Positions 8,567 through 32,591 of a stretch of DNA of 34,407 nucleotides are shown here, one piece after another. The notes under the pieces were generated by a model, which had not been told where the DNA came from, did no database searches, and worked only from the letters and a program-made list of their open reading frames with translations. Numbering within the stretch: position 1 is the stretch's first letter; each line of letters begins with the position of its first letter. Source of the DNA: a virus (lineage: Duplodnaviria > Heunggongvirae > Uroviricota > Caudoviricetes > Peduoviridae); the IMG/VR virus record IMGVR_UViG_2541047772_000007; one strand, given 5' to 3'. Position numbers and translations under genes: made by a program.

Positions 8567-9160
8567 TCAATTATGTAAATCTTTTGTTTTATGTTCTTTG
8601 GCGTGTTGTGACAACAAATGGCTATAGCGTTTAAGCAAAATATTAGAAAGATTAAGCTCATTCATGAAGTGTTCTTCTAATAAGTAACCATCAATATCAA
8701 CTTTAATATCATTACCACTTTTCATCTTCTGTAACGTAGATTTTACACGCTCCAGCAGGATGCTTTGCTCATGGTAATAGTCCATAAGAAGAGTAACATC
8801 CTCTTTATCAAGCTTACTTAATTCGCTGAAGTAGGATTTAAACACTTTATCAGTCTGGTTTAATGCAATCTGTAAGCGAGGCCCCCCTAATGATTTGACA
8901 TTAATGGCAAAAGGCTCGCCAACAAAATGCTCCGAATTTTCGTCAAAGCCAATATATCTCGTTTTATCAAGAAAAGTGAGAGCGCGATGGTTATTAGCGA
9001 TTTCATATGCAAACATTGTTCTGATACTGTCCCTCTCAGCCTCCATGCTTATATCATCACGATGATTTGTATAAAATATATTTCCAACAAAGAGAACCAT
9101 AGCAAGAATCACTGAACTTGCCTCCCAGTTAATATTTTTTAATCGTCGCTTAGTAAACAT
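8567..9160 (-). CDS. Hypothetical membrane-anchored protein (197 aa), moron at the Z/fun position between G and FI
   Basis: ATG start preceded by an AAGGTG Shine-Dalgarno; N-terminal basic stretch plus one hydrophobic helix (SSVILAMVLFVGNIFY); strongly AT-rich compared with flanking phage genes; flanked by AT-rich intergenic regions. No family recognised. Confidence 0.7.
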   Translation of the reverse strand: MFTKRRLKNINWEASSVILAMVLFVGNIFYTNHRDDISMEAERDSIRTMFAYEIANNHRALTFLDKTRYIGFDENSEHFVGEPFAINVKSLGGPRLQIALNQTDKVFKSYFSELSKLDKEDVTLLMDYYHEQSILLERVKSTLQKMKSGNDIKVDIDGYLLEEHFMNELNLSNILLKRYSHLLSQHAKEHKTKDLHN

Positions 9161-24949: not shown

Positions 24950-26035
24950 ATGGGTTACGAAGTTGATTTCTTAGCAGTTGGAGAAAAAAAAAGTGGAGAT
25001 GCTATCTGCATAAGATGGGGCAACCTCCACGGAACAAGAGCAGAGCAAAAAGTTGTCGTAATTGATGCGGGGTACGCAAGCACTGGTCCACAAATAATTG
25101 AACATTTACAGAAATACTATCATACAAATACTATTGACTTACTCATATCCACGCATCCAGATAGCGACCATGCTGGCGGCCTTGAGCATGTGATTGAGAA
25201 TGCGGAAGTCAAAGAGTTCTGGATTCACCAGCCTTGGGAGCATAATGAAAATCTCGCGCAGGAATTTGCTGATGGAAGGATAACAGATGCAAGTATTGCC
25301 AGACGTATACAAGATAATCTACAAAAAGCCTATGATGCCGTCAAATCAGCGAAAAAAAAAGGAATAGAAATTAAGGAGCCTTTTCAAGGCAGGACTTGGG
25401 ACAATTCTAAACTGGTTGTTATTGGACCAACACAAGCATACTATGAAACATTAATCCCCGATTTTGCAAGAATGCCTGAAAAAGCAGAAACAACTGCAAC
25501 CAGTGGTACAGATGCATATAACTACTTTTTTGAGAAAGCCAAAGAACAAGTCGAGTATATTGCTGATTGGTTCTCTGATGAGGGAATTGATGACAAGGAC
25601 ACAACTACTGCACAAAACAATTCAAGCGTTATATTAAAAATTGAAATTGACAATAAAACACTAGTATTTACAGGTGATGCAGGAATAACTGCATTAGATA
25701 TGGCTGCTGATCATATAAATAATAACTCATTATCATTTATTCAAGTGCCCCACCATGGAAGCAGGAGAAACATCGGTCCAGCGGTGCTAAATAAGCTCGT
25801 TGGAAATATTGTAAGCGAAGGAGGAAGAAGTGGTGTTTGTGCATTTATATCATGCGCACCGGATTCCGATAAACACCCTCATCAAGCGGTCATTAATGCT
25901 TTTACAAGGCGTGGAGCCAAAGTAGTCGCCACAGAAGGCACCAATAAACGCCATTCTAGTAATGCCCCCGCCAGAGATGGCTGGACTGCAGTCACCCCAC
26001 GCTCATACGCAAGGAGTTATAAGACTGAAGAATAA
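24950..26035 (+). CDS. ComEC-like metallo-beta-lactamase-fold hydrolase (361 aa), putative nuclease; cargo gene at the P2 tin/old position
   Basis: Motifs in the translation: FLAVGEKKSGDAICIRWG....VVVIDAGY, STHPDSDHAGG (HxDxDH metal-binding motif), LVFTGDAG, VPHHGS. Strongly AT-rich. This ORF is distinct from P2 tin and old (the P2 old product is an OLD-family ATPase-nuclease). Confidence 0.75.
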   Translation: MGYEVDFLAVGEKKSGDAICIRWGNLHGTRAEQKVVVIDAGYASTGPQIIEHLQKYYHTNTIDLLISTHPDSDHAGGLEHVIENAEVKEFWIHQPWEHNENLAQEFADGRITDASIARRIQDNLQKAYDAVKSAKKKGIEIKEPFQGRTWDNSKLVVIGPTQAYYETLIPDFARMPEKAETTATSGTDAYNYFFEKAKEQVEYIADWFSDEGIDDKDTTTAQNNSSVILKIEIDNKTLVFTGDAGITALDMAADHINNNSLSFIQVPHHGSRRNIGPAVLNKLVGNIVSEGGRSGVCAFISCAPDSDKHPHQAVINAFTRRGAKVVATEGTNKRHSSNAPARDGWTAVTPRSYARSYKTEE

Positions 26036-26041
26036 TTCGTT

Positions 26042-26061
26042 AAGCTGCCTTAGGGCAGCTT
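26042..26061. terminator. Bidirectional hairpin between the convergent cargo genes (AAGCTGCC-TTAG-GGCAGCTT)
   Basis: Perfect 8-bp inverted repeat in the short gap between the MBL gene stop and the membrane-protein gene stop; overlaps the last codons of the latter. Confidence 0.5.
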
Positions 26062-26538
26062 ATTATTAGCCTTACTCACTCTTAATGTAATAAACTTAAT
26101 TTGCTTAACGTACGACACAATAAAAACAAAAATCAAAAACAATGAAATCCATTTCGACGCCATGTAATCACCACCAACTACAAACGAAACAAAAAACAAA
26201 GAAAACAAAAAAACCAAGGACATAGAGAATAACGTCCTATACATATTTGCAGTTTCTTGAAGAAGCTCTATTTTATTATCCTTTCTACATGCTGAGATAT
26301 ATTCCTCATATGGAACAAATTTTACCAGCCCCAAAAACTTCAACACAGGCTCAAAAACAATAGACCCAATCCTTCCGATAATTATCCCCGTAAAATAGTA
26401 AAGTACCACATTCTTAACAACATCATCTGTGGATAATATCACATTGGTTGCCCGCTCAAACAAATAAATAAACAAAGCACCGGGAAAGAGATTGTTAAAT
26501 ATATTATAAGACGATATTTTTTCCCATAAACCATCCAT
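26050..26538 (-). CDS. Hypothetical small integral membrane protein (about 162 aa, about four predicted transmembrane helices); second cargo gene
   Basis: ATG (MDGLWEK...) preceded by an AAGGTG Shine-Dalgarno; the track ORF starts 3 codons earlier at a GTG. Hydrophobic segments LFPGALFIYLF, VVLYYFTGIIIGRIGSIVF, LFSMSLVFLFSLFFVSFVVGG, WISLFLIFVFIVSYV. AT-rich, convergent with the MBL gene. Confidence 0.7.
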   Translation of the reverse strand: MDGLWEKISSYNIFNNLFPGALFIYLFERATNVILSTDDVVKNVVLYYFTGIIIGRIGSIVFEPVLKFLGLVKFVPYEEYISACRKDNKIELLQETANMYRTLFSMSLVFLFSLFFVSFVVGGDYMASKWISLFLIFVFIVSYVKQIKFITLRVSKANNKLP

Positions 26539-26653
26539 ACAACACACCTTTTAACCAATTTTAAAGACGCCATTTTCATCAAAAGAAACAAAAATAGCAA
26601 GAACATCAGAACAAACTCTTTGAACACCTGAAAATATTATGTTCCGACACCAT

Positions 26654-30008: not shown

Positions 30009-30509
30009 TTAATGCAGATATTGCTCTGGTTTTACCGACGTCAGAATTGTCGGTGCATACTCAAACAGGCTGAATAATTCACGTAATGCACGGAATAAAG
30101 CATCACGCCAGTAACATGATTCTTCATTAATGCGCCAGTACGGCTGATTGAATTCTTTTTCTGTCAATCCCGCATGCATAAATAAAGTACGACGCTGACT
30201 GACTGTTAAAAAACTAATATATGCATACTCACTTGCACCGACCTGACGGCGTTTTGAGAATGCCCCGCGCAGTTCATCAATTGCACAAACCAGCCGTTCA
30301 CGTTCGACGTCGTTCATTTCTTCAAAACGCATCGTTGCGTGACGTTGTTTTAACTGCGCATGGAAGCAAACCGTTAACCGTTCGCGTTCCATCATCTGAT
30401 TATAATAATCACATGTATCCTGCCAGCGAGGAACGGCAAGATGCTTACCAATTATCCGACGCATGGTTGCTGGCTGTTTTTCAACGAGATTGAGCGTCAT
30501 CACTGTCAT
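30009..30509 (-). CDS. B: Replication protein B (about 166 aa)
   Basis: Length and position match P2 B; the start could equally be the ATG two codons upstream (30515). Confidence 0.8.
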   Translation of the reverse strand: MTVMTLNLVEKQPATMRRIIGKHLAVPRWQDTCDYYNQMMERERLTVCFHAQLKQRHATMRFEEMNDVERERLVCAIDELRGAFSKRRQVGASEYAYISFLTVSQRRTLFMHAGLTEKEFNQPYWRINEESCYWRDALFRALRELFSLFEYAPTILTSVKPEQYLH

Positions 30510-30676
30510 TTCCATACCCTCCGGCTTTTCAGAAAGGTCAGAGCCTTTTTTAACGGACTCTGTTTTTTGGTGCGGATAATGATTCCCTTGCGTCCCTTCC
30601 CGTGGGTGATGGTGAAGTCAATCGCCCTGGGGCTTTCGTTACGCAATAACTGAGCAATACAACGAGGCTCGTTCAT
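30506..30676 (-). CDS. P2 orf78-like small basic protein (56 aa)
   Basis: Between cox and B; track ORF (GTG start) trimmed to the ATG (MNEPRCIAQLL...). Confidence 0.55.
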   Translation of the reverse strand: MNEPRCIAQLLRNESPRAIDFTITHGKGRKGIIIRTKKQSPLKKALTFLKSRRVWK

Positions 30677-30686
30677 ACGGTTCTCC

Positions 30687-30962
30687 TTAACGTGGTTCAC
30701 CGAGACCTAACCACATCAACCAGCCGTCACGAATCTCTTTAGGACGGCTTTCATAAGCCAGTTTTAGTCCGTTATTCCATGCCGGAAGGTATACCCAATA
30801 TTCACCAGCACGCCCCGAAACTGACTGAGGGTCAGTAATCTCAATAACTGGTAATTTCCCTTTCTCAATCATGCCCCTTACAGCTCTTGGAGTTTTACCA
30901 ATGAGTTTTGCAAACTCCTGATAAGGCACGGCATCAGTCACGCTTACAAGCTGTCTATTCAT
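30687..30962 (-). CDS. cox: Cox (excision control / Pc repressor, 91 aa)
   Basis: 91 aa; C-terminal ...SGRAGEYWVYLPAWNNGLKLAYESRPKEIRDGWLMWLGLGEPR recognised as P2 Cox-like; first gene of the early operon. Confidence 0.85.
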   Translation of the reverse strand: MNRQLVSVTDAVPYQEFAKLIGKTPRAVRGMIEKGKLPVIEITDPQSVSGRAGEYWVYLPAWNNGLKLAYESRPKEIRDGWLMWLGLGEPR

Positions 30963-31083
30963 CTGCTACGATTCTCCCTTAGTGCTTCTAATGGCTCCTA
31001 ATGGCTAATTATTGCCTAAAAGGATAACTCCAGAAGCACAACATTTTACACTATCAGCAAGAAATTACGCAATCGGAGTAATT
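30963..31083. promoter_or_regulatory. Immunity switch region (divergent Pe/Pc promoters) containing tandem direct repeats CTAATGGCT-c-CTAATGGCT
   Basis: Intergenic region between divergent cox and C. Two 9-bp direct repeats with 10-bp periodicity at about 30989-31007, consistent with direct-repeat operator half-sites for a P2-type C repressor. Confidence 0.55.
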
Positions 31084-31383
31084 ATGTCAATAGACGTTTC
31101 GGAGAAGTTGAAGCTAATCCGTGAATCTGAAAGGTTAAACCGTAAAGAATTCAGTGAATTAACTGGTGTAGCCTACAGCTCACTTTCGAGCTATGAGAGC
31201 CGGTCAAAAAACGCTGGAGTTGAAGCCATAATGAAGGTCTTACAACATCCTAGATTTACTAAATATACTTTGTGGTTCATGACTGATCAGGTAGCTCCAG
31301 AAGCCGGGCAAATTGCGCCCGCTCTCGCACACTTTGGGCAAAACGAAACAACGTCGCCCCACTCCGGTCAAAAGACTGGTTAA
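31084..31383 (+). CDS. C: Immunity repressor C (99 aa)
   Basis: C-terminal half ...FTKYTLWFMTDQVAPEAGQIAPALAHFGQNETTSPHSGQKTG is P2 C-like; the N-terminal DNA-binding half diverges from my recollection of P2 C. Track ORF (alternative start) trimmed to the ATG giving 99 aa. Confidence 0.8.
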   Translation: MSIDVSEKLKLIRESERLNRKEFSELTGVAYSSLSSYESRSKNAGVEAIMKVLQHPRFTKYTLWFMTDQVAPEAGQIAPALAHFGQNETTSPHSGQKTG

Positions 31384-31498
31384 CAATTTATCGTGAATAT
31401 ATTCATCACAAGTGCCTACTATTGGTGGCTAAATTTCAGCCACCACGAAAAAAGCGATTAGTAGTAGCAAAAAAAAGTACCACTCGGAGGGTTTTCTG

Positions 31499-32512
31499 AT
31501 GGCAATCAAAAAACTCGATGATGGTCGATATGAAGTGGACATCCGCCCTACTGGACGTAACGGAAAACGCATCCGTAGGAAGTTTGATAAGAAAAGCGAA
31601 GCTGTCGCTTTCGAAAAATACACGTTGTACAACCACCACAATAAAGAATGGCTATCAAAACCAACAGACAAACGACGTCTGTCGGAACTGACACAGATCT
31701 GGTGGGATTTAAAGGGTAAACACGAAGAGCATGGGAAATCTAATCTTGGAAAAATTGAAATCTTCACAAAAATAACGAATGACCCATGCGCATTTCAAAT
31801 CACGAAATCCCTTATCAGCCAGTACTGCGCCACCCGAAGAAGTCAGGGTATTAAACCTTCGAGTATCAATCGTGATTTAACATGTATTAGCGGCATGTTT
31901 ACAGCCCTGATTGAAGCGGAGTTATTCTTTGGTGAGCACCCTATCAGAGGGACAAAGAGGCTTAAGGAGGAAAAACCAGAAACAGGCTATCTCACACAGG
32001 AAGAAATTGCCTTACTGCTTGCAGCACTTGACGGCGACAATAAAAAGATTGCGATTCTTTGCCTGAGTACAGGAGCACGTTGGGGAGAAGCAGCTCGTTT
32101 GAAAGCAGAAAATATCATCCATAACCGCGTCACGTTTGTTAAAACGAAAACAAACAAACCACGCACCGTCCCGATTTCAGAGGCTGTTGCCAAAATGATC
32201 GCGGATAACAAACGAGGTTTTTTATTCCCTGATGCTGATTACCCTCGCTTCAGACGAACAATGAAAGCAATAAAACCGGATTTGCCAATGGGGCAAGCCA
32301 CACATGCACTAAGGCACAGCTTTGCCACTCATTTCATGATTAATGGAGGAAGTATTATCACGCTACAACGGATACTAGGTCACACGCGGATTGAGCAAAC
32401 TATGGTTTACGCTCATTTTGCGCCAGAGTACCTTCAGGACGCCATTTCTCTTAATCCGCTAAGAGGTGGTACTGAGGCCGAGAGTGTCCACACAGTGTCC
32501 ACAGTAGAGTAA
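31499..32512 (+). CDS. int: Tyrosine integrase (337 aa)
   Basis: GGAGGG Shine-Dalgarno then ATG; C-terminal catalytic motifs HALRHSFAT and LGHTRIEQTMVYAHF; ends about 80 bp before the att core. Confidence 0.9.
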   Translation: MAIKKLDDGRYEVDIRPTGRNGKRIRRKFDKKSEAVAFEKYTLYNHHNKEWLSKPTDKRRLSELTQIWWDLKGKHEEHGKSNLGKIEIFTKITNDPCAFQITKSLISQYCATRRSQGIKPSSINRDLTCISGMFTALIEAELFFGEHPIRGTKRLKEEKPETGYLTQEEIALLLAALDGDNKKIAILCLSTGARWGEAARLKAENIIHNRVTFVKTKTNKPRTVPISEAVAKMIADNKRGFLFPDADYPRFRRTMKAIKPDLPMGQATHALRHSFATHFMINGGSIITLQRILGHTRIEQTMVYAHFAPEYLQDAISLNPLRGGTEAESVHTVSTVE

Positions 32513-32591
32513 CGTTTAAGGGCTTTCAGTGGTAATTTATGCCGCTCAAACCCGCATTGTACCGTTGAAAGCCCCTACTGGTGACACCCTA

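What the first reader, a model, noticed from the sequence alone, without database searches (positions are those of the whole stretch)
30963..31383. Immunity region: repressor C with a divergent N-terminal half and tandem 9-bp direct repeats in the switch region
The C-terminal half of C appears P2-like while the N-terminal half (the DNA-recognition part) does not match my recollection of P2 C. The Pe/Pc region carries CTAATGGCT-c-CTAATGGCT, a direct repeat with one-helical-turn spacing. Together these suggest an immunity specificity different from P2, which bears on superinfection immunity and on inducibility of this prophage.
Basis: partly seen in the sequence, partly recalled or inferred. Interest (0 to 1): 0.4.

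Follow-up and report, generated by a model that had tools for sequence, protein, structure and literature searches.

The report
Known P2 Hy dis-type immunity switch
This is the lysis/lysogeny switch of a P2-like E. coli prophage that carries the already studied "P2 Hy dis" (E. coli B-type) repressor, and its tandem 10-bp repeats are most likely binding sites for the opposing regulator Cox, not for the repressor.

Summary
Both observations are real. C (31084-31383) is 28/60 identical to P2 C in residues 1-60 and 36/39 in residues 61-99. CTAATGGCT occurs twice, 10 bp apart (30988-31006).

The immunity type is not P2's, but it is not new. The cox-C region is 810/812 identical to the defective P2-like prophage of E. 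coli B, the recorded donor of the P2 Hy dis immunity region. It contains a published Hy dis primer exactly. Its only 26-bp-spaced 8-mer pair (TCGGAGTA/TCGGAGAA) flanks the Pe -35, which is the published Hy dis operator geometry. The cassette is in 349 of 5426 complete E. coli genomes.

The tandem repeat is very unlikely to be the C operator. It lies at the cox/Pc end, aligns with P2's cox-boxes over Pc, and belongs to a four-unit, 10-bp-phased array. That array is kept 26-47 nt from the cox start in 18 of 28 related switches from many genera, whatever their C type. The best reading is a Cox operator that occludes Pc.

Verdict: an ordinary, already characterised switch, and low interest.

The parts
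30687..30962 (-). cox gene: 91 aa, the repressor of Pc and the excision directionality factor
   Evidence: Pfam Phage_Cox E=1.7e-42. It is 84% identical to P2 Cox, and all differences lie in residues 2-48. The DNA is identical to the E. coli B REL606 prophage cox except for one synonymous base at 30819.
30807..31303 (.). Immunity cassette that differs from P2 (54-80% identity in 50-bp windows); the flanks are 96-100% identical to P2
   Evidence: Pairwise identity profile against P2. The cassette is 810/812 identical to REL606 over 30687-31498.
30983..31021 (-). Four-unit, 10-bp-phased array, proposed as the Cox operator over Pc. On the + strand it reads TGCTTCTAA | TGGCTCCTAA | TGGCTAATTA | (T)TGCCTAAAA. 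On the - strand it reads TTTTAGGCA, TAATTAGCCA, TTAGGAGCCA, TTAGAAGCA.
   Evidence: Repeat. It aligns with P2's TGCGTTTAA | TGTCTTATAA | TGCCTTTTAG, which are cox-box matches of 9/9, 7/9 and 8/9 on the - strand. A phased TAATKGC x3 array lies 26-47 nt from the cox start in 18/28 related loci, against 0/8400 shuffles.
31007..31012 (+). Inferred Pc -10 (AATTAT); there is no good -35
   Evidence: It aligns with the annotated P2 Pc -10 TATAAT, and with a perfect TATAAT in Citrobacter/Enterobacter relatives. P2 Pc was mapped by primer extension about 50 nt from the cox start. This is an inference for the window; the simple promoter scan found nothing.
31062..31067 (-). Inferred Pe -10 (TAATTT on the - strand), 17 nt downstream of the -35
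   Evidence: The spacing and position match the annotated Pe of P2. The block AAATTA is kept in relatives with a similar C.
31073..31080 (-). C operator half-site, promoter-proximal copy: TCGGAGTA on the + strand, TACTCCGA on the Pe strand. It overlaps the Shine-Dalgarno sequence of C.
   Evidence: It belongs to the only 8-mer pair with 2 or fewer mismatches at spacings of 24-28 bp in 31020-31135. It fits the published Hy dis operator: 8-bp half-sites, 26 bp apart, on either side of the Pe -35, with one natural mismatch.
31085..31090 (-). Inferred Pe -35 (TTGACA on the - strand), overlapping the C start codon
   Evidence: It is the same hexamer at the same place relative to the C start as the annotated Pe -35 of P2.
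31099..31106 (-). C operator half-site, distal copy: TCGGAGAA on the + strand, TTCTCCGA on the Pe strand. It lies inside C codons 6-8.
   Evidence: As for 31073-31080. It lies 26 bp from the other copy.
31084..31383 (+). Immunity repressor C, 99 aa, identical to RefSeq WP_000020919.1
   Evidence: Pfam HTH_3. The P2 C structures 2XCJ/2L49 match at E=2.5e-39. It is 64.6% identical to P2 C. It is the same protein accession in REL606, E. coli W, O157:H7 TR01 and H10. It contains the Hy dis primer A3-44 at 31119-31134.
31499..32512 (+). Integrase, 100% identical in protein sequence to P2 Int; second gene of the lysogenic operon
32502..32575 (.). att-side Cox-binding region, identical to the annotated Cox site of P2 attP
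   Evidence: Alignment to P2 and the P2 annotation. This Cox therefore has to work on P2-type cox-boxes for excision.

Best explanation
Window 30807-31303 is the immunity cassette of a P2-like prophage inserted between yegQ and yegR of E. coli. The cassette is of the P2 Hy dis / E. coli B type.

It is a two-repressor switch with face-to-face promoters. Pe reads leftward into cox and the early genes. Pc reads rightward into C and int.

C is a 99-aa HTH dimer. It binds two direct half-sites, TACTCCGA and TTCTCCGA on the Pe strand, at 31073-31080 and 31099-31106. They are 26 bp apart and straddle the Pe -35. This shuts off Pe and gives immunity only against phages with the same operator, so the lysogen should be sensitive to P2.

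Cox is a winged-helix protein that forms filaments. It binds the 10-bp-phased array at 30983-31021, which covers the Pc core promoter, and so shuts off C and int. The two CTAATGGCT copies are two of the four units of this Cox operator.

Shown here: the sequences, their positions, the homologies and the conservation. Inferred: the promoter positions and all protein-DNA binding.
For: 1. Identity of the cassette.
- It is 810/812 identical to the REL606 (E. coli B) prophage cox-C region, with the same 121-bp spacer.
- The Hy dis-specific primer A3-44 matches 31119-31134 exactly and is absent from P2.
- C is 64.6% identical to P2 C; the published Hy dis/P2 value is 63%.
- Cox has E33, as reported for Hy dis Cox.

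2. C operator.
- TCGGAGTA/TCGGAGAA is the only 8-mer pair with 2 or fewer mismatches at 24-28 bp spacing near Pe. It flanks TTGACA and carries one mismatch.
- The published Hy dis operator has 8-bp half-sites, 26 bp apart, on either side of the -35, with a natural mutation whose correction extends the repeat by 2 nt.
- The motif ACT(A/C)CGA is found in all 9 relatives with the same type of recognition helix. It is nearly absent from switches with P2-like or Klebsiella-type helices.

3. Cox operator.
- The array aligns with P2's three best cox-boxes over Pc.
- Cox-boxes are known to be spaced 10-11 bp apart and to overlap the Pc -10 and -35.
- Klebsiella phage ST16-OXA48phi5.4 keeps the array and the Cox helix. 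Its C helix 3 and the upstream half-site both differ.
- 18/28 loci from about 15 genera have three phased TAATKGC units 26-47 nt from the cox start, against 0/8400 shuffles. This holds across at least 5 C helix types, and the Cox helix ...GKTPAAVKGMIEKGKLP... is conserved.
Against: - The units of the window's array match the published cox-box consensus TTAAA(G/C)NC(A/C) at only 6-7 of 9 positions. That is no better than background in the window, which has 2.5 hits of 7/9 or better per 100 bp. The case rests on position, phasing and conservation.
- The array also overlaps the Pc -10, so part of its conservation could be due to the promoter.
- The half-sites overlap the C ribosome-binding site and the conserved S-E-K codons, so part of that repeat is forced by other constraints. 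Relatives with the same helix have TAGGAGTA/TCAGAGAA there, which match each other at only 5/8.
- The Hy dis sequence itself (AJ306907) could not be fetched.
- Two published details do not fit exactly. The literature gives T25 for Hy dis Cox, while this Cox has T24 P25. Hy dis/Wphi C identity is published as 44%, against 49.5% measured here.
Confidence: 0.85

Rival explanations
1. One reading: the tandem CTAATGGCT repeats are the operator of this divergent C repressor, and they mark a new immunity specificity.
For: P2-family C repressors do bind direct repeats. The repeat is statistically real and lies in the C-cox spacer.
Against: - The repeats lie 56-100 bp from the inferred Pe hexamers and on top of the region aligned to P2 Pc.
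- Known C half-sites are 22-34 bp apart, not 10.
- The same motif at the same distance from cox occurs with P2-like, Klebsiella-type and other C helices.
- It bears no resemblance to the 26-bp-spaced pair that fits the published Hy dis operator.
- The immunity type is already known.
Confidence: 0.04
2. The phased array is only Pc promoter sequence, or a neutral 10-bp duplication, with no dedicated binding protein.
For: The third unit overlaps the inferred Pc -10. The window's two units are exact copies, as a recent slippage duplication would be. The match to the cox-box consensus is weak.
Against: - Three to four units with strict 10-bp phase are kept across many genera at 70-80% overall DNA identity (0/8400 shuffles). 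A -10 hexamer alone does not explain this.
- In P2 the aligned units are the footprint-derived cox-boxes.
Confidence: 0.08
3. The immunity cassette belongs to a class related to, but functionally distinct from, P2 Hy dis. C would then recognise sites other than the 26-bp pair, for example the ACTCC-like sites at 31027-31033 and further left.
For: There are small mismatches with published numbers. Relatives with the same helix carry strong ACTACGA repeats at -57/-37 from the C start.
Against: - The cassette is near-identical to the E. coli B prophage that donated the Hy dis region.
- The primer match is exact.
- The operator geometry matches the published description in four separate respects.
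- The -57/-37 sites are degenerate in the window.
Confidence: 0.03

Closest known systems
Developmental switch of phage P2 Hy dis (Renberg-Eriksson et al. 2001; Henriksson-Peltola et al. 2007, PMC1904268)
   Same: - The C repressor has the same level of identity to P2 C (about 63-65%).
- The operator geometry is the same: 8-bp half-sites, 26 bp apart, flanking the Pe -35, with one natural mismatch.
- The primer A3-44 sequence is present.
- Cox has E33.
- The origin is the E. coli B defective prophage, to which the window is 810/812 identical.
   Different: - Here the cassette sits in an apparently full-length prophage between yegQ and yegR, not in the laboratory hybrid.
- There is one private base change in the spacer (31047 T).
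- Direct comparison with AJ306907 was not possible.
Phage P2 switch (C, Cox, Pe/Pc, O1/O2, cox-boxes)
   Same: - The gene order is the same, with face-to-face promoters and the Pe -35 TTGACA overlapping the C start.
- The C-terminal dimerisation half of C is 36/39 identical.
- Int and the att-side Cox site are identical.
- A homologous phased array lies over Pc.
   Different: - The C recognition helix differs.
- The half-sites are TCGGAG(T/A)A, 26 bp apart, around the -35. In P2 they are ATCTAAAC, 22 bp apart, around the -10.
- The Cox N-terminal region differs at 15 positions.
- The boxes read TTAG.. rather than TTAA...
Phage Wphi switch (immunity class III)
   Same: It is the same family of 97-99-aa C repressors that bind direct repeats, with a convergent Pe/Pc.
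   Different: C is 49.5% identical. Wphi has 10-bp half-sites 34 bp apart around the -10. Its Cox is a different type and its spacer is 152 bp.
Phage 186 Apl and other recombination directionality factors that bind direct repeats one helical turn apart
   Same: A small bifunctional excisionase/repressor binds tandem sites spaced one helical turn apart between the early promoters and at att (abstract of PMC7498355).
   Different: 186 has a CI/CII-type switch and an unrelated immunity repressor. Apl is not a close relative of this Cox.

Membership tests
P2-type C immunity repressors | A small (about 100 aa) protein with an N-terminal HTH and a C-terminal dimerisation part, homologous to P2 C | tested here: met
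   99 aa. Pfam HTH_3 scores 23.8 bits against a cut-off of 23. The P2 C structures 2L49/2XCJ match at E=2.5e-39 over residues 1-99. It is 64.6% identical to P2 C.
P2-type C immunity repressors | [quoted passage not shown] | tested here: met
   cox 30687-30962 (-), a 121-bp spacer, C 31084-31383 (+), int 31499-32512 (+).
P2-type C immunity repressors | It binds two direct-repeat half-sites at Pe | not testable with these tools
   The sequence has a suitable pair at 31073-31080 and 31099-31106. Binding itself needs EMSA or footprinting.
P2 Hy dis immunity class | The C protein is at least 95% identical to the class prototype (definition in PMC3448106) | tested here: inconclusive
   The prototype AJ306907 is in none of the collections. 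Indirect evidence: C is identical to that of the E. coli B prophage, the recorded donor of the Hy dis region, and identity to P2 C is 64.6% against the published 63%.
P2 Hy dis immunity class | The operator consists of 8-bp half-sites, 26 bp centre to centre, on either side of the Pe -35, with one natural mismatch | tested here: met
   TCGGAGTA/TCGGAGAA lie 26 bp apart around TTGACA. It is the only such pair in the region, and it fits the published description.
P2 Hy dis immunity class | It contains the phage-specific primer site A3-44 used to amplify the Hy dis operator | tested here: met
   There is an exact 16/16 match at 31119-31134, with 0 expected by chance. The site is absent from P2.
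P2 Hy dis immunity class | It is heteroimmune to P2 and Wphi and homoimmune to P2 Hy dis | not testable with these tools
   This needs plating of P2, P2 Hy dis and Wphi on the lysogen.
P2 Cox / cox-box operator | A Cox protein of the Phage_Cox family | tested here: met
   PF10743 at E=1.7e-42, covering residues 3-87. It is 84% identical to P2 Cox.
P2 Cox / cox-box operator | Several boxes spaced 10-11 bp apart and overlapping the Pc -10 and -35 | tested here: met
   Four units start at 30983, 30992, 31002 and 31013. They are aligned with P2's boxes over Pc, and the phase is conserved in 18/28 relatives.
P2 Cox / cox-box operator | The boxes match the consensus TTAAA(G/C)NC(A/C) | tested here: inconclusive
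   The window units score 6-7 of 9, which is no better than the window background. The aligned P2 units score 9, 7 and 8 of 9.
P2 Cox / cox-box operator | Cox protects the region and represses Pc | not testable with these tools
   This needs a footprint and a reporter assay. Hy dis Cox is reported to complement a P2 cox3 prophage.

The most novel reading that the evidence does not exclude
Within a single recognition-helix class of C repressors (...YSSLSSYESRSKN), the operator architecture may have moved. The window/Hy dis type has its ACTCCGA-like half-sites on the Pe strand at -11 and +16 from the C start, around the Pe -35. Citrobacter, Enterobacter, Scandinavium and Rouxiella relatives with essentially the same helix carry perfect ACTACGA repeats in the opposite orientation at -57 and -37, downstream of the Pe start. 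They keep only weakened copies at -11/+16. If both sets are real C sites, this family shows operator geometry evolving while the reading head stays constant. The degenerate ACTCC at 31027-31031 of the window could then be a relic or an auxiliary site.
Probability: 0.15. Interest if true: 0.35.

Novelty: already known. Interest (0 to 1): 0.12.

Why it matters
It matters little beyond correct annotation. The prophage should give immunity to P2 Hy dis-type phages but not to P2 or Wphi. Its repressor lacks a self-cleavage domain, so, like P2, it should not be SOS-inducible. This immunity type is about as common in complete E. coli genomes as P2's own: 349 against 406 of 5426. It occurs in many O157:H7 strains, E. 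coli W and E. coli B. The one useful correction concerns the conspicuous 10-bp tandem repeat. It belongs to the constant, Cox-side half of the switch that is shared across immunity types. It should not be used as a marker of immunity specificity.

Tried and rejected
- Simple sigma-70 scan of 30600-31550: no promoter passed its thresholds. Pe and Pc were therefore placed by homology to the P2 annotation.
- Scoring the repeat units against the published cox-box consensus gave only 6-7/9, which is background level. I did not use consensus matching as evidence.
- Fetching the Hy dis literature and sequence failed: Karlsson 2006 (PMC1482927), Renberg-Eriksson 2001 (by DOI), Liu 1999 (PMC113030) and GenBank AJ306907.
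- A full-text search for the operator, repeat and protein strings found nothing relevant.
- The supplements of PMC3448106 are not held.
- The names of cluster members for C and Cox never mention Hy dis.
- Rfam scan of 30400-31700 at E up to 1: no RNA family.
- The 8-nt inverted repeat GTGCTTCT/AGAAGCAC (30982-30989 / 31032-31039) was considered as an extra, inverted box. By rough arithmetic about 0.4 such pairs are expected by chance in a 221-bp region, so I did not rely on it.
- I looked for natural recombinants that separate the C type from the repeat array within E. coli. All 350 records carry the whole 30900-31300 block, so E. coli alone gives no test. The cross-genus loci did.

Full report
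**What is there**

The finding covers the spacer between two divergent genes and the right-hand gene.
- cox is at 30687-30962 on the - strand (91 aa; Pfam Phage_Cox, E=1.7e-42).
- C is at 31084-31383 on the + strand (99 aa; Pfam HTH_3). The solved P2 C structures 2L49/2XCJ match at E=2.5e-39.
- C is followed by int at 31499-32512, whose protein is 100% identical to P2 Int.
- The window starts in yegQ and ends in yegS. The flanks match E. coli genomes at 100%. This is therefore a P2-like prophage in E. coli.

**Check of the observation**

Both parts are correct.
- Against P2 C, the protein is 64/99 identical: 28/60 in residues 1-60 and 36/39 in residues 61-99.
- At DNA level, the stretch that differs from P2 is a cassette from about 30807 to 31303. 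It covers cox codons 1-52, the 121-bp spacer and C codons 1-74, and it lies between flanks that are 96-100% identical to P2.
- CTAATGGCT lies at 30988-30996 and 30998-31006.
- It is the only exact 9-mer repeated at a 10-bp offset in the whole window. Only 37 of 20000 shuffled spacers gave a comparable tandem.

**Which immunity type this is**

Five lines of evidence point to the P2 Hy dis / E. coli B type.
- Among 50,697 phage records, only Escherichia phage vB_EcoM-720R8 carries this region at 99% or more. P2 and its close relatives match only the flanks.
- The literature describes three experimentally studied C classes: P2, P2 Hy dis and Wphi. Hy dis C is 63% identical to P2 C. Its operator has 8-bp half-sites 26 bp apart on either side of the Pe -35. 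One half-site carries a natural mismatch, and correcting it extends the repeat by 2 nt.
- The Hy dis-specific primer A3-44 given in that work matches window 31119-31134 exactly and is absent from P2.
- E. coli B REL606 carries such a prophage between yegQ/ogrK and yegR. Its cox-C region is 810/812 identical to the window, with the same spacer length.

The window's C is the same RefSeq protein (WP_000020919.1) as in REL606, E. coli W, an O157:H7 strain and strain H10.

I could not fetch the Hy dis sequence itself (AJ306907). Two small published details do not fit exactly. The literature gives T25 for Hy dis Cox, and this Cox has T24 P25, although E33 agrees. Hy dis/Wphi C identity is published as 44%, and I measure 49.5%. 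I take the class assignment as very likely, not proven.

The cassette is common. It is present in 349 of 5426 complete E. coli genomes, against 406 for P2's own cassette. The exact C and Cox proteins are each recorded on at least 1000 contigs.

**Where C most likely binds**

- By homology with the annotated P2 promoters, Pe has its -35 (TTGACA) on the - strand at 31090-31085, overlapping the C start codon exactly as in P2. Its -10 (TAATTT) lies 17 nt downstream at 31067-31062.
- The only 8-mer pair with 2 or fewer mismatches at spacings of 24-28 bp in 31020-31135 is TCGGAGTA (31073-31080) with TCGGAGAA (31099-31106). The two are 26 bp apart and lie on either side of that -35.
- The two copies share TCGGAG and then a T/A mismatch followed by A. 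This fits the published remark about a natural mutation whose correction lengthens the repeat by 2 nt.
- P2's own half-sites (ATCTAAAC, twice) are absent.

One caveat applies. One copy overlaps the ribosome-binding site of C, and the other overlaps the conserved S-E-K codons, so part of the repeat is forced by other constraints.

**What the tandem repeat is**

It lies at the other end of the spacer, 21-59 nt from the cox start.

Re-registered, it is a four-unit array with a 10-bp phase:
- TGCTTCTAA
- TGGCTCCTAA
- TGGCTAATTA
- (T)TGCCTAAAA

The array spans 30983-31021. In alignments it falls on P2's TGCGTTTAA | TGTCTTATAA | TGCCTTTTAG. On the cox strand these P2 units are the three best matches (9/9, 7/9, 8/9) to the published cox-box consensus TTAAA(G/C)NC(A/C).

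In P2, cox-boxes were derived from Cox footprints. They are spaced 10-11 bp apart and overlap the Pc -10 and -35, and the crystal structure suggests one Cox protomer per helical turn. P2 Pc was mapped about 50 nt from the cox start. This places the window's Pc -10 at AATTAT, 31007-31012, inside the array.

The window's own units match the consensus at only 6-7 of 9, which is background level. I do not lean on consensus matching.

**Comparative test**

A scan of one genome per species returned 30 loci with Cox relatives from about 15 genera. In 28 switches I compared the Cox N-terminus, C helix 3 and the spacer. The set comprises 26 of those loci plus P2 and the window.
- The Cox recognition region (...GKTPAAVKGMIEKGKLP...) is nearly constant. 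C helix 3 falls into at least five types.
- Eighteen of the 28 have three TAAT(G/T)GC units (1 mismatch or fewer) exactly 10 bp apart, 26-47 nt from the cox start, regardless of C type. None of 8400 shuffled spacers does.
- The motif was read off these same sequences, so the count is not independent. The fixed position and phase are what matter.
- The C-proximal half of the spacer differs between C types and carries type-specific direct repeats. For example, ATCTAAAC twice at 21-22 bp occurs in P2 and in a Rahnella relative with a P2-like helix.
- Klebsiella phage ST16-OXA48phi5.4 shows the same split in one pair. Its Cox is 89% identical and the array is kept. Its C is 78% identical with a changed helix 3, and the upstream half-site is changed.

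The tandem repeat therefore travels with Cox, not with C.

**Mechanism**

The steps below are inferred unless marked otherwise.
- C dimers occupy the two half-sites around the Pe -35 and block early transcription. This maintains lysogeny and gives immunity to phages with the same operator.
- Cox, made from Pe, polymerises on the phased array over Pc and shuts off C and int.
- The att-side Cox-binding region next to int is identical to P2's, so this Cox must also act on P2-type boxes. That agrees with the report that Hy dis Cox complements a P2 cox mutant.
- C has no self-cleaving domain. Like P2, it should not be SOS-inducible.

**An unresolved detail**

The motif ACT(A/C)CGA, which is the half-site read on the Pe strand, occurs in all nine relatives with the window's type of helix. 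It is almost absent from the other types.

In Citrobacter, Enterobacter and similar relatives, the perfect copies lie at -57 and -37 from the C start in the opposite orientation. The copies at -11/+16 are weaker there. Whether operator geometry differs within one helix class is open.

**Verdict**

The inference of a non-P2 immunity is right, but the type is already known and common. The repeat was assigned to the wrong protein. No RNA family matches the region.

Noticed in passing
window 31047: This is a private base change in the stretch transcribed from both Pe and Pc. The window has T. None of 321 complete E. coli genomes carrying this 61-bp segment matches it exactly. All six comparators checked have C (REL606, O157:H7 TR01, H10, W, phage 720R8, E. 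ruysiae). On the - strand the change turns TGAAAT into the -10-like TAAAAT (31048 to 31043), with TTGCGT 18 nt upstream. It could be a sequencing error, a neutral change or a promoter-creating change.
   Followed up: partly
window 24950-26547: There is a cargo gene pair at the variable spot between the portal gene and the replication gene. One is a 361-aa metallo-beta-lactamase-fold protein (PADLOC candidate defence PDC-M48B, E=6e-99; Pfam Lactamase_B). The other is a convergent 165-aa protein (PDC-M48A, E=7e-49). At the same spot the E. coli B prophage carries an ABC-three-component system instead.
   Followed up: partly
window 8567-9160 (-): A 197-aa ORF between the tail sheath gene and the tail-fibre genes has no Pfam or PADLOC match. 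This is the place where P2 carries its Z/fun cargo (from memory).
   Followed up: no
window 32483-32503: AGTGTCCACA is repeated at an 11-bp offset at the very end of int. It lies inside the Int P' arm-binding site annotated in P2 (L001 3285-3311) and is identical to P2.
   Followed up: yes
window 1635-32620 versus L003 (REL606) 10409-32347: The window's prophage occupies the same yegQ/yegR site as the defective E. coli B prophage. It shows a full set of P2-sized ORFs over about 31 kb, whereas the B prophage has truncated tail, portal and morphogenesis genes. It may be an intact relative of the Hy dis donor.
   Followed up: partly
L035 (JAEYGZ010000011.1, 'Bacillota bacterium' MAG, 7 kb contig): This contig encodes a C protein identical to the window's and a Cox identical over the 70 residues that matched. 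It is most likely E. coli contamination in that metagenome bin.
   Followed up: no
L026, L033, L039, L043, L037 (switch regions of Citrobacter, Scandinavium, Huaxiibacter, Enterobacter and Rouxiella prophages): These relatives have the same C recognition helix as the window. They carry perfect ACTACGA direct repeats at -57 and -37 from the C start (only the -57 copy in L039). These resemble the reverse complement of the window's half-site, but they sit at a different place and in the opposite orientation.
   Followed up: partly
L015 (E. coli W) versus window 31037-31052: Within this immunity type, the only variable stretch of the spacer is 31037-31052. E. coli W differs there at 4 positions. 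The phased array, both half-sites and the promoter hexamers are invariant in all six sequences aligned.
   Followed up: yes
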